Shown here piece by piece: positions 43,501 through 46,500 of a stretch of 64,000 nucleotides of DNA. A program made the position numbers. Every line of letters starts with the position of its first letter. The stretch's first letter is position 1. The DNA is from Escherichia coli (GTDB taxonomy: Bacteria > Pseudomonadota > Gammaproteobacteria > Enterobacterales > Enterobacteriaceae), in assembly GCF_002854065.1 (NCBI RefSeq), contig NZ_CP024147.1; one strand, written 5' to 3'.

Positions 43501-46500
43501 TGACCGGAGAAAGCGATCCATTGTTGGCATCTGACAAGGCGCTGGACTGGGTAGATCTGGTGCTGTGCACCGCCGGGCCAATCGGCTTGTATATGGCGGG
43601 CTTTACCGAAGACGAAGCGAAACGTAAAACCCAGCATCCGCTGCTGCCGGGCGCTATAGCGGAATTCAACCAGTATGAGTTTAGCCGCGCCATGCGCCAC
43701 AAGGATTGCCAGAATCCGCTGCGCGTTTATTCGCACATTGCGCCGTACATGGGCGGGCCGGAAAAAATCATGAACACCAACGGAGCAGGGGATGGCGCAC
43801 TGGCAGCGTTGCTGCATGACATTACCGCCAACAGCTACCACCGTAGCAACGTACCAAACTCCAGCAAACATAAATTCACCTGGTTAACTTATTCATCGTT
43901 AGCGCAGGTGTGTAAATATGCTAACCGTGTGAGCTATCAGGTACTGAACCAGCATTCACCTCGTTTAACGCGCGGCTTGCCGGAGCGTGAAGACAGTCTG
44001 GAAGAGTCTTACTGGGATCGTTAACTCATCGGATGTAACCAAATGGCACCCGTAGGCCGGATAAGATGCGCCAGCATCGCATCCGGCAATGCGATTTATC
44101 CAAACAGGGCAATCCCGGCGTCTTTTTTTACTTCTGACATGGACGCATAGAATGAAAAAAGTATGGTATCTGCAACATACGCATTTTGGCGATATGAAAG
44201 AAATCGGTATTTACACCCGTTATGAACGGGCTTTGCAGGGCAAAAAGGACGTGGAAAATAAGCCAGGTTTTGTGGATTCCCCGGAAAATTTTCAGTTTAT
44301 TGAATACATTCTTAACCAGGATCTCTGGGGTGATTTTCCCGTTACACAGGCAGACGATCCCGTCGAGCCGATGGTTTACAGCCTGTGGCACATTCGTGAC
44401 GATGAGGCTGATGATTACGTCTTCCTCGGTATTTATACCACTGCCGAACTGGCGGAGCAGGCCCGCGAACGAGCCTGCCGCTATTTTCAGGAAGATGCTG
44501 CAAATATTCAGCCAGACAAAGGGCTGCTTGATCGTACCTGGTGGGAAGAGGGCTTCATTTCATGGGACGAAGCCTCGGAATTGATTACTCCCAACGCGGT
44601 ATAAGCATCTGGCATTTGGCTCTCGATGCCTGATGCGACGCTGGCGCGTCTTATCATGCCTACATATTTTTCATATTCTACATTCGGCAACCACCGTTTA
44701 CCCCGTCACCACCTCACCCGCCGGTGGCGTTTCCAGCAGTTCCAGCATAGTACGGGCAATTTCACGCTCACCCATCACTACCTGATTCGCGCCACGTTCG
44801 GTGATATACGCCACTTCATCGTCATAATGGGCGCGGGCGATAATCTCAATATCCGGGTTTTTCGCGCGGGCAGACGCCACAATCTCGCCTGCTTCATAAC
44901 CGTTGGGAATCGTCAGGATCAGCCATTTTGCACATTCCAGATGCGCCAGTTGCATAATTTCTTCGTTCGCCGCATTGCCCAATACAGCGCGGACCCCACG
45001 CTCTCGCAGCTCATCAACACGGGTTCGTGACGTCTCAATCACCACCAGCGGAATATCAGAGGCGAGCAATTTCTCCCCCAGCAGGCTGCCTACACGACCG
45101 TAACCAACCAGTAGCGCATGGTTGCAAATATCCACTGGGATCTGCTTCTCTTCTTCGATTGCCTCTTCCAGCGTCTGCTCTTCCAGCGTTTCGGTCTTCG
45201 CCAGATATTTCTCCAGCAGCGCAAACAGGACCGGGTTGAGCATAATCGACAAAATCGCACCTGCCAGTACCAGGTTCTGCCCGGCTTGCGGCAACAGATC
45301 CAGCGCCATGCCCAGTCCCGCCAGGATAAACGCGAACTCACCAATTTGCGCCAGGCTGGCGGCGATAGTTAATGCCGTACGTTGGGAGTGACCAAACAGT
45401 CGCACCAGGAAAAATGCGGCTAACGACTTACCAAACAGAATAATCGCCAGCGTCGCCAGCACTGCCAGCGGTTGCTGAATCAGAATTAACGGATCAAACA
45501 ACATCCCGACGGAGACAAAAAACAGCACCGCAAACGCGTCGCGCAATGGCAGCGTATCGTGGGCGGCACGGTGACTCAGTTCAGACTCGTTCAGTACCAT
45601 CCCGGCAAAGAACGCACCGAGTGCAAAGGAGACATCAAACAGCTCTACCGCACCAAAGGCAATCCCTAACGCCAGCGCCAGCACCGACAGGGTAAACAGC
45701 TCGCGAGAACCGGTTGCCGCGCTGCGTGCCATAATCCACGGCACCAGACGGCGACCTACCAGCATCATAATGGCGATAAACGCGATCACTTTGCCGATGG
45801 TGATCCCCATATCGACTGCAAGAGTGGCAAAGCCCACATCGCCCTGTTCCATCATTCCTGCCACTGCGGGCAGCAACACCAGCGTCAGAACCATTACCAG
45901 GTCTTCCACAATCAACCAACCGATGGCGATTTGCCCACGCTGACTGTCAATTAATTGCCGTTCTTCAAGTGCGCGCAGTAACACCACGGTACTGGCGGTG
46001 GAAAGACATAAACCGAACACGATACCGGTCATTAACGACCAGCCCAGCACGGCAGAGAGCGCCATACCCAGCAGCGTCGCCACGGCTATCTGGGCGATCG
46101 CGCCGGGAATGGCGATGGCCTTTACCGCCATCAAATCCTTCAGCGAAAAGTGCAGACCCACGCCAAACATCAACAGAATGACGCCCAGTTCAGCCAGTTC
46201 CGGCGCAAGCTTGGTATCGGCAACAAAGCCCGGAGTGAATGGTCCTGCCAGCACACCCGCTAACAGATATCCCACCAGAGGAGAAATACGTAGTTTATTG
46301 GCCAGCATGCCGAGGATAAAGGCGAGCACAAGGCCGCCAACAATGGTGGTGATAAGCGGGGTGGCGTGATGCATTCCGTCTCCTTTTCCTGGTGGTTATT
46401 GTCCATTTTTGGCCGGGAAAACCAAAATTACAGGTAATAGTTTATGACAATTTCATTGATGATGTTCATGAATAATTATTGAATTTTGCAGAAAAATGGA

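What the first reader, a model, noticed from the sequence alone, without database searches (positions are those of the whole stretch)
44152..44604. Internal tandem duplication within the orphan ORF
Two segments of the protein share a pattern: VWYLQHTHFGDMKEIGIYTRYERALQ (residues 4-29 from ATG 44152) and LWHIRDDEADDYVFLGIYTTAELAEQ (residues ~88-113), i.e. W-x-H-x(7-9)-[IL]-G-I-Y-T-x-[YA]-E-x-A. A two-fold repeat suggests a pseudo-dimeric small domain, which supports the ORF being a real folded protein rather than a chance frame.
Basis: seen in the sequence. Interest (0 to 1): 0.4.

Follow-up and report, generated by a model that had tools for sequence, protein, structure and literature searches.

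The report
Two-domain orphan toxin-immunity-like gene
The small gene between gsk and ybaL of this rare E. coli lineage is real and encodes two old, diverged copies of a ~65-residue DUF7336 domain; in other bacteria that domain is encoded right after one particular Rhs/CDI/phage-borne toxin domain, so the gene is most likely a stand-alone ("orphan") immunity protein, which is an ordinary kind of accessory gene.

Summary
The two halves of the 150-aa product of window 44152-44604 (+) align better than shuffled controls (z 5.2-5.7; at most 2 of 2000 shuffles reach the score). Both halves independently match a family profile built without Escherichia sequences.

- The second segment is residues 78-103, not ~88-113.
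- "W-x-H" is not literally present.
- The ORF is not an orphan: a full HMMER scan finds 54 relatives, mostly Pfam DUF7336 (PF24024), as single-domain or tandem proteins.
- This is not a recent internal duplication. The halves are 26% identical with no DNA repeat, and each is 42-43% identical to a single-domain Providencia protein.

The gene is real:
- dN/dS is 0.13 against a syntenic copy in another Escherichia lineage.
- The AlphaFold2 model has pLDDT 90.6, pTM 0.82 and a ββαβ unit twice.

Function is inferred from context, not tested. In 8 distinct loci, including a Salmonella Rhs orphan array and a Providencia CdiA orphan array, a DUF7336 gene lies 8-20 nt downstream of one undescribed ~75-aa toxin C-terminal domain. 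None of 57 loci with the same N-terminal motif but other C-termini has a DUF7336 gene. No such toxin is in this window. Only 12 of 5426 complete E. coli genomes carry the gene.

The parts
44152..44604 (+). Coding sequence of a 150-aa tandem DUF7336-like protein (stop included); RefSeq WP_032280413.1 'hypothetical protein'
   Evidence: dN/dS is 0.13. Homologues. AF2 pLDDT is 90.6.
44158..44337 (+). Domain 1 (residues ~3-62): beta-beta-alpha-beta. It keeps the GIYT and KPGF-D-P-x-F motifs. The terminal W-EGF motif has degenerated to W-GDF.
   Evidence: The family HMM built from 12 non-Escherichia single-domain proteins gives 52 bits on residues 1-72. It is 43% identical to the Providencia 69-aa protein. 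SSE.
44371..44562 (+). Domain 2 (residues ~74-137): beta-beta-alpha-beta. It keeps VYxLWH, GIYT and W-EGFI. The KPGF motif is replaced by RYFQED. A short C-terminal helix follows (residues 138-145).
   Evidence: The family HMM gives 41 bits on residues 73-150. The Pfam DUF7336 partial hit covers residues 85-104. It is 42% identical to the Providencia protein. SSE.
44116..44150 (+). Remnant (last ~11 codons plus the TAG stop) of a 94-98-aa upstream partner gene. That gene is intact in three E. coli genomes and in Escherichia sp. E1V33, and deleted here between short repeats (GCAATCC / CCAATACC).
   Evidence: Comparison of window 44100-44151 with L013 300-645 and L022 3360-3745. Annotation.
44050..44092 (.). 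REP-type palindromic element between the gsk stop and the cassette
   Evidence: Read directly from the sequence. Aligned with the REP elements of K-12-like, ATCC 25922 and EC93 intergenic regions.
44629..44665 (.). REP-type element right of the cassette, shared with genomes that lack the gene. The right junction of the extra DNA is at the stop codon (44604/44605).
   Evidence: Alignment A1.

Best explanation
Window 44152-44604 is a genuine accessory gene. Its product consists of two anciently diverged DUF7336-type beta-beta-alpha-beta domains joined by a ~10-residue linker, probably packed as a covalent pseudo-dimer.

By family context it most likely acts as an immunity protein. It would bind and neutralise a small toxin domain of about 75 aa (signature SKDVPSWAxGxRPxxGExGxDFAxRLxDxxYGxGNW...GDRxFxDP). 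Other bacteria deliver that domain as the C-terminus of Rhs/T6SS, CdiA or phage portal/PRDxxGRW-type carrier proteins.

No such toxin gene lies next to this gene. It would therefore be an orphan immunity gene, protecting against toxins injected by competitors. It is the survivor of a two-gene cassette lodged between REP elements in the gsk-ybaL spacer of a few Escherichia lineages.

Shown here: the repeat, the homology, purifying selection, the confident fold, the toxin-DUF7336 gene adjacency in other genomes, and the absence of the toxin from this window.

Inferred: binding and neutralisation, pseudo-dimer geometry, which toxin is neutralised, and whether the gene is expressed.
For: Real gene and real repeat:
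-.

Family:
- A full HMMER scan gives 54 relatives, of 73-104 aa with one domain or 135-215 aa with two.
- 47 of 56 hit PF24024.
- The model's single domains superpose on phage proteins labelled DUF7336 in BFVD, with TM normalised by target of 0.74-0.83 and rmsd 1.3-3.1 A over 53-56 residues.

Context, starting from DUF7336 proteins:
- In 4 of 6 non-Escherichia loci, a toxin-X ORF lies immediately upstream of a DUF7336 gene. These are L014, L016, L017 and L019.

Context, starting from toxin X:
- The gene 8-20 nt downstream is DUF7336 in L025 and L026.
- The same holds in Salmonella enterica L085, inside a VgrG-Rhs locus with orphan CdiA_C/immunity cassettes.
- The same holds in Providencia rettgeri L086, in the orphan array after a CdiA with Fil_haemagg_2 and PT-VENN.
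- These downstream genes reach Pfam's gathering score for DUF7336, at 25.3-32.8 bits.

Specificity:
- Of 61 metagenomic ORFs sharing the N-terminal FNPxxPRDxxGRWT motif, the 4 with toxin X all have a DUF7336 gene next door.
- The 57 with other C-termini have none.
- Those other C-termini include Tox-REase-5, glucosaminidase and Tlde1.

Toxin X behaves as a polymorphic-toxin module:
- 241 profile hits.
- Some carry PT-HINT (PF07591) or the Rhs YD-shell (PF25023), or are named RHS repeat-associated.
- One is fused to a phage portal protein.

Closest relatives of the window protein:
- Both halves are closest to these immunity-position proteins: Providencia 43% and 42%, Salmonella 37% and 32%.

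The concept of orphan immunity genes is established: PMC10539506, PMC3150448, PMC12247911.
Against: - No experiment links DUF7336 to immunity. No paper mentions DUF7336 or PF24024.
- The window protein is a divergent member. It scores 20.4 bits against Pfam's cut-off of 25, and on only 20 residues. Each domain has lost one family motif: W-EGF in domain 1 and KPGF in domain 2.
- No toxin X is present in the 64-kb window, nor within 3-6 kb in any Escherichia locus examined.
- DNA of the Salmonella toxin finds only one partial match in 5426 E. coli genomes.
- Some family members sit in housekeeping neighbourhoods without a toxin (L007, L009-L011).
- Many DUF7336 proteins are small phage proteins of unknown role.
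- No sigma-70-like promoter was found upstream, and the upstream partner gene has been deleted, so expression is uncertain.
Confidence: 0.6

Rival explanations
1. It is a real two-domain DUF7336 protein, but its role has nothing to do with toxin neutralisation. It could be, for example, a phage-derived small binding or regulatory protein. On this reading the toxin linkage applies only to one subfamily.
For: - DUF7336-labelled proteins of 51-59 aa occur in many phages, including Salmonella phage Jersey, Bacillus phage Spock and Escherichia phage 2725-N35.
- Members in L007 and L009-L011 have no toxin nearby.
- The Escherichia genes have no toxin in cis.
- In its intact form, the Escherichia cassette partner is an unrelated 98-aa protein with no Pfam match.
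Against: - Both halves of the window protein are most similar to the CDI- and Rhs-linked members.
- The adjacency is strict for toxin X and absent for other C-termini on the same N-terminal motif.
Confidence: 0.27
2. It is a decaying leftover: an intact-looking but no longer expressed or useful survivor of a two-gene cassette that most E. coli have lost.
For: - Only 12 of 5426 complete genomes carry it.
- The upstream gene is deleted in this lineage.
- A 102-aa truncated form exists in E. fergusonii (P0003).
- No promoter-like site was found.
- Its GC content is 47.7%, against 52-56% for its neighbours.
Against: - The reading frame is intact in all 12 genomes and in two further Escherichia lineages.
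- dN/dS is 0.13.
- The 90%-identity cluster of the close variant P0001 holds 123 member sequences.
Confidence: 0.1
3. It is a recent, lineage-specific internal tandem duplication of a single-domain gene.
For: Two homologous halves lie in one ORF. Some other family members do have sister d1/d2 domains (P0014, P0030, P0009, P0020).
Against: - The halves are 26% identical and share no DNA repeat.
- In the domain tree, each half groups with domains of other proteins, not with the other half.
- The close Escherichia variants already have the same two diverged halves.
Confidence: 0.02
4. It is a chance open frame in REP-flanked spacer DNA.
For: It lies in an intergenic spacer flanked by REP elements. 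NCBIfam and PADLOC give no hit.
Against: Homologues, purifying selection and a confident fold.
Confidence: 0.01

Closest known systems
Pfam PF24024, DUF7336 (domain of unknown function)
   Same: - The ~60-residue beta-beta-alpha-beta unit is the same.
- 47 of 56 relatives hit the model.
- The CDI- and Rhs-linked relatives pass its gathering score.
- The predicted domains superpose on BFVD DUF7336 proteins.
   Different: - The window protein itself is below Pfam's cut-off, at 20.4 against 25 bits, with a partial match in domain 2 only.
- It carries two copies in tandem.
- Each copy has lost one conserved motif.
CdiI / RhsI-type immunity proteins of polymorphic toxin systems, including orphan immunity genes (PMC3150448, PMC3967940, PMC10539506, PMC12247911)
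   Same: - The family members are small, cytoplasmic-looking proteins.
- They are encoded 8-20 nt downstream of a toxin C-terminal domain in Rhs and CdiA orphan arrays.
- They co-vary with the toxin domain, not with the delivery part.
- The window gene stands alone without a toxin, like described orphan immunity genes.
   Different: - Neutralisation is untested.
- The gene is not in a toxin or immunity island. It lies between housekeeping genes gsk and ybaL.
Arrays of several immunity genes or fused immunity domains in toxin loci (general feature of polymorphic toxin systems; own knowledge, Zhang et al. 2012 Biol Direct 7:18)
   Same: - Toxin X is followed by two adjacent single-domain DUF7336 genes in Salmonella (75 + 70 aa) and in L014 (77 + 85 aa).
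- It is followed by a fused two-domain protein in L019.
- The window protein has the fused form.
   Different: Whether the two copies act together as a hetero- or pseudo-dimer, or are alternative specificities, is not known.
Small alpha/beta domains such as ClpS, MzrA, PII-like SbtB and SPOR
   Different: All scores are below any membership level. There are no shared motifs. Only one domain is matched at a time.

Membership tests
Pfam DUF7336 (PF24024) | The Pfam HMM score of the protein reaches the gathering score (25 bits) | tested here: not met
   The score is 20.4 bits, E = 4.7e-4, with only residues 85-104 matched. The 93%-identical P0001 carries only a 'faint' precomputed hit.
Pfam DUF7336 (PF24024) | Significant homology of each half to bona fide members | tested here: met
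   - Phmmer over 1.84 billion representatives gives 54 hits at E <= 1e-3, to either half. 47 of the 56 aligned sequences hit PF24024, with a best E of 3.9e-18.
- An HMM of 12 single-domain members scores 52 bits on the N half and 41 bits on the C half.
Pfam DUF7336 (PF24024) | The same fold as family members | tested here: met
   The AF2 model has pLDDT 90.6. Foldseek against BFVD matches DUF7336-labelled phage proteins U5PY09, S4X5B5 and A0A6B9SS80 with TM (target) of 0.80, 0.74 and 0.63.
Polymorphic-toxin immunity protein (CdiI/RhsI-like) | The gene lies immediately downstream of, and co-varies with, a toxin C-terminal domain | tested here: not met
   - For the window gene: the upstream gene is gsk, followed by a REP element. 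No toxin-X match is found in six-frame ORFs of the whole window at E <= 10.
- For the family the feature is met: 8 distinct loci show the adjacency, against 0 of 57 controls.
Polymorphic-toxin immunity protein (CdiI/RhsI-like) | The partner domain is a bona fide polymorphic toxin module, attached to Rhs, CdiA or PT-HINT type carriers | tested here: met
   Profile A7 hits proteins carrying PT-HINT (PF07591) or TEN_YD-shell (PF25023), or named RHS repeat-associated. The module sits in Rhs and CdiA orphan arrays. One copy is fused to a phage portal protein.
Polymorphic-toxin immunity protein (CdiI/RhsI-like) | It binds its toxin and blocks toxicity | not testable with these tools
   This needs co-expression, pull-down or a complex prediction.
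Orphan immunity gene | The carrier genome lacks the cognate toxin | tested here: inconclusive
   No toxin X lies in the window or within 3-6 kb in six Escherichia loci. DNA of the Salmonella toxin finds one partial match in 5426 genomes. No protein-level search of whole E. coli genomes was possible.
Recent internal tandem duplication | The halves are each other's closest relatives, and/or residual DNA repeat remains | tested here: not met
   Distance d1-d2 is 0.90, against 0.61-0.72 to other proteins. Identity is 26%. There is no DNA repeat.
SPOR domain (PF05036) | The Pfam HMM score is above its threshold | tested here: not met
   The window protein has no hit. Relatives reach only 13-16.5 bits, against a cut-off of 21.

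The most novel reading that the evidence does not exclude
DUF7336 is an unrecognised immunity family for an undescribed ~75-residue toxin domain (SWAxG...YGxGNW...GDRxF). That domain is mounted on at least three delivery chassis: Rhs/T6SS, CdiA, and phage portal/MuF-type head proteins carrying the PRDxxGRW linker. The working immunity unit would be a dimer, encoded either as two adjacent single-domain genes or as one fused tandem protein. The E. coli gsk-ybaL gene would be a chromosomal orphan of this type, protecting a few Escherichia lineages against toxins of other Enterobacterales.
Probability: 0.45. Interest if true: 0.55.

Novelty: new member of a known kind. Interest (0 to 1): 0.35.

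Why it matters
- It turns a 'hypothetical protein' into a testable case, and it turns a Pfam DUF into a candidate immunity family paired with a toxin domain that has no Pfam model.
- It offers a compact example of one immunity fold encoded as a single domain, as two neighbouring genes, or as a fused pseudo-dimer.
- It shows the gsk-ybaL REP-rich spacer acting as a landing site for accessory cassettes in Escherichia.

None of this changes how such systems are understood. The kind (a toxin/immunity pair, an orphan immunity gene) is well known.

Tried and rejected
- **NCBIfam, PADLOC, PHROGs.** No useful hit for the protein.
- **Word-indexed protein search.** With the single protein it found only three close Escherichia variants. 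With alignment A2 it added little.
- **Single-sequence AlphaFold2.** The model was unusable, with pLDDT 43.9.
- **afdb50 fold library.** Not available.
- **The search for related loci with family alignments A3 and A4.** With the single protein it found only Escherichia sp. E1V33.
- **tblastn against plasmids and phages.** No match.
- **Promoter scan.** Nothing upstream.
- **Literature.** No paper mentions DUF7336 or PF24024.
- **Pfam on toxin X and on the 98-aa upstream partner.** No family.
- **Readings considered and rejected.** A chance ORF, a recent internal duplication, a SPOR domain, and a ClpS/MzrA relative.

Full report
**Where we are.** The window is Escherichia coli chromosome, with gene order hemH, aes, gsk, the ORF, ybaL, fsr. 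The ORF at 44152-44604 (+) gives 150 aa. RefSeq annotates it as hypothetical protein WP_032280413.1 in strain XJ34, which is 100% identical over the region.

**Checking the observation.**
- Segment 1 is residues 4-29, as stated. Segment 2 is residues 78-103, not ~88-113.
- The core motif [IL]GIYTx[YA]ExA occurs exactly twice, at residues 18-27 and 92-101.
- The 'W-x-H' prefix is not literally present in either half.
- The best local alignment of the halves scores 47, against 23.6 +/- 4.3 for shuffles (z 5.2-5.7). Between 0 and 2 of 2000 shuffles reach it.
- BLASTP of half against half gives E = 5e-4.
- The halves share no DNA repeat. They are 26% identical in the family register.
- The repeat is therefore real and better than chance, but old.

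**Is it a gene?**
- A 93%-identical copy (P0001) sits at the same gsk-ybaL position in another Escherichia lineage whose flanking genes differ by ~10% in DNA.
- Between the two copies there are 19.5 synonymous and 11.5 non-synonymous differences, so dN/dS = 0.13.
- With a 56-sequence alignment, AlphaFold2 gives pLDDT 90.6 and pTM 0.82. The order strand-strand-helix-strand appears twice, followed by a short C-terminal helix. Without an alignment the model was poor.
- The ORF is a real protein-coding gene.

**What family?**
- The word-indexed search saw only close Escherichia variants.
- The exhaustive HMMER scan of 1.84 billion representatives found 54 proteins at E <= 1e-3. They match either half. 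Some have one domain (73-104 aa) and some have two (135-215 aa).
- 47 of 56 aligned sequences hit Pfam DUF7336 (PF24024). The window protein itself reaches only 20.4 bits, against the cut-off of 25.
- An HMM built from 12 single-domain members, with no Escherichia sequence, scores 52 bits on the N half and 41 bits on the C half.
- The consensus unit is vYlLWHvh...ed.KLIGVYSt...A..A..r...kPGF.D.P.gF.I..y.Ld.d.W.EGF.
- Domain 1 of the window protein has lost the final EGF. Domain 2 has lost KPGF.
- No solved structure is related.
- In the viral predicted-structure library the single domains superpose on small phage proteins labelled DUF7336.

**Age of the duplication.**
- In a distance tree of 98 domain units, the two window domains are far apart (0.90). 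Each is nearer to domains of other proteins (0.61-0.72).
- Each half is 42-43% identical to a 69-aa Providencia protein, and 32-37% identical to a 75-aa Salmonella protein.
- Some other tandem members do have sister domains, so tandem forms arose more than once.
It is not right as an event in this gene's recent history.

**What does it do?** I looked at gene neighbourhoods.
- Three metagenomic loci reached from DUF7336 proteins (L014, L017, L019) carry a 166-183-aa ORF 15 nt upstream. That ORF has a conserved C-terminal ~75-aa domain, which I call toxin X here (SKDVPSWAxGxRPxxGExGxDFAxRLxDxxYGxGNW...GDRxFRDP), and an N-terminal FNPxxPRDxxGRWT motif. A fourth locus, L016, has a toxin-X fragment upstream.
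- A metagenome scan with these ORFs returned 61 loci. Four have toxin X, and all four have a DUF7336 gene next. Fifty-seven share only the N-terminal motif and have other C-termini, and none of them has DUF7336.
- The other C-termini include Tox-REase-5, glucosaminidase and Tlde1. The motif also occurs on Mu F-like and portal proteins. In L026, toxin X is fused to a phage portal protein.
- A profile of toxin X finds 241 proteins. Some carry PT-HINT or the Rhs YD-shell, or are named RHS repeat-associated. Some come from Salmonella and Providencia.
- In Salmonella enterica the toxin-X ORF lies in a VgrG-Rhs locus among orphan cassettes, and is followed after 16 nt by two DUF7336 genes of 75 and 70 aa.
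- In Providencia rettgeri it lies in the orphan array behind a CdiA gene, and is followed after 14 nt by a 69-aa DUF7336 gene.
- These downstream genes pass Pfam's DUF7336 threshold.
- This is the signature of a cognate toxin/immunity pair in polymorphic toxin systems (PMC3150448, PMC3967940). The immunity gene tracks the toxin domain, not the delivery module.

**The Escherichia case.**
- No toxin X is present in the window or near any Escherichia copy. The gene is best read as an orphan immunity-type gene, a known category (PMC10539506, PMC12247911).
- Only 12 of 5426 complete E. coli genomes carry it. Nine are identical to the window and three are ~90-91% identical. All others have only REP elements in the spacer.
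- In the three divergent genomes and in Escherichia sp. E1V33, the gene is preceded by a 94-98-aa (or longer) ORF of unknown family. Its stop lies 1-14 nt before, or overlaps, the start of the 150-aa gene.
- In the window that upstream gene has been deleted, leaving its last ~11 codons at 44116-44150.
- GC content is lower than in the neighbours: 47.7% against 52-56%.

**Limits.**
- Immunity is inferred from adjacency only.
- The window protein is a divergent member.
- Some family members, including many phage proteins, have no toxin nearby.
- Expression is unknown, and no promoter-like site was found.
- I could not measure the model's pseudo-symmetry or predict a toxin complex.

**Verdict.**
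- I am about 95% confident that this is a tandem DUF7336-type gene, and about 60% confident that it works as an orphan immunity protein.
- It is a new member of a known kind, of moderate interest.

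Noticed in passing
window 44100-44151; L013 300-645; L012 344-628; L022 3394-3740: In three E. coli genomes and in Escherichia sp. E1V33, the 150-aa gene is the second gene of a two-gene cassette. The first gene encodes a 94-98-aa protein (longer in E1V33), MKYISVPLTQQAMERLDYDCCKPSDLF..., with no Pfam match. In the window it has been removed by a deletion between short repeats, leaving ~11 codons.
   Followed up: partly
L013 151-369 (-); L005 ~6530-6600: The cassette is bordered by partial duplicates of its neighbours. A ybaL 3'-end-like fragment (…LETPPAVEVVTG) lies left of the cassette in strain 2013C-4282. A second copy of the gsk 3' end plus REP (ACTGGGATCGTTAAGTTATCGGATGTAACC…) lies right of it in the other Escherichia lineage. 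This suggests insertion or exchange by recombination in the REP-rich spacer.
   Followed up: no
window 44152-44604 vs L005 6004-6456, and flanking genes: Synonymous divergence of the ORF (dS 0.25) is about half that of flanking gsk, ybaL and hemH (0.51-0.66) between the same two genomes. That would be expected if the cassette moved between Escherichia lineages after they split.
   Followed up: no
L023-L083 (61 metagenomic loci); alignment A6: A conserved motif, (A/S)LxK(x)NFNPxxPRDxxGRWT, precedes highly variable C-terminal domains (Tox-REase-5, glucosaminidase, Tlde1 and many unknown). It also occurs on phage Mu F-like and portal proteins. It looks like a linker or trafficking module of a polymorphic toxin class, possibly packaged in phage heads.
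   Followed up: partly
L019 5485-5985; L085 5001-5543; L086 5001-5588; alignment A7: The ~75-aa toxin-X domain has no Pfam, NCBIfam-independent or PDB match, yet it has 241 profile hits, including Rhs- and PT-HINT-linked proteins. In L019 the collection's gene caller did not call this ORF at all.
   Followed up: partly
P0004 (L017 6001-6744): This is a 247-aa protein with the order DUF7336, then a degenerate toxin-X-like segment (YG to HG, GNW to GKW, GDRxFRDP to GNRGNLDP), then DUF7336. It lies directly after an intact toxin-X ORF. It looks like a fused orphan cassette.
   Followed up: no
L085 5560-6014 and 9126-9547; L014 2433-2961: Pairs of adjacent single-domain DUF7336 genes recur, twice in the Salmonella Rhs locus and once in a soil contig. 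They mirror the fused two-domain proteins and may be their precursors, or heterodimer partners.
   Followed up: partly
window 44089-44151: An in-frame ATG at 44089 would give a 171-aa product. Relatives start at the position of 44152 (MMKKVWY, MRTVWY, MQTVWY), and PGAP also uses 44152, so the long form is unlikely.
   Followed up: yes
P0003 (E. fergusonii, 102 aa): A variant from E. fergusonii is truncated after the helix of domain 2, so it is probably a pseudogene. This shows the cassette decaying in some lineages.
   Followed up: no
window 44128-44391 (-), 44222-44584 (+): Long overlapping ORFs of 87 aa and 120 aa lie in other frames of the same DNA. They are by-products of the coding frame, and nothing supports them.
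   Followed up: no
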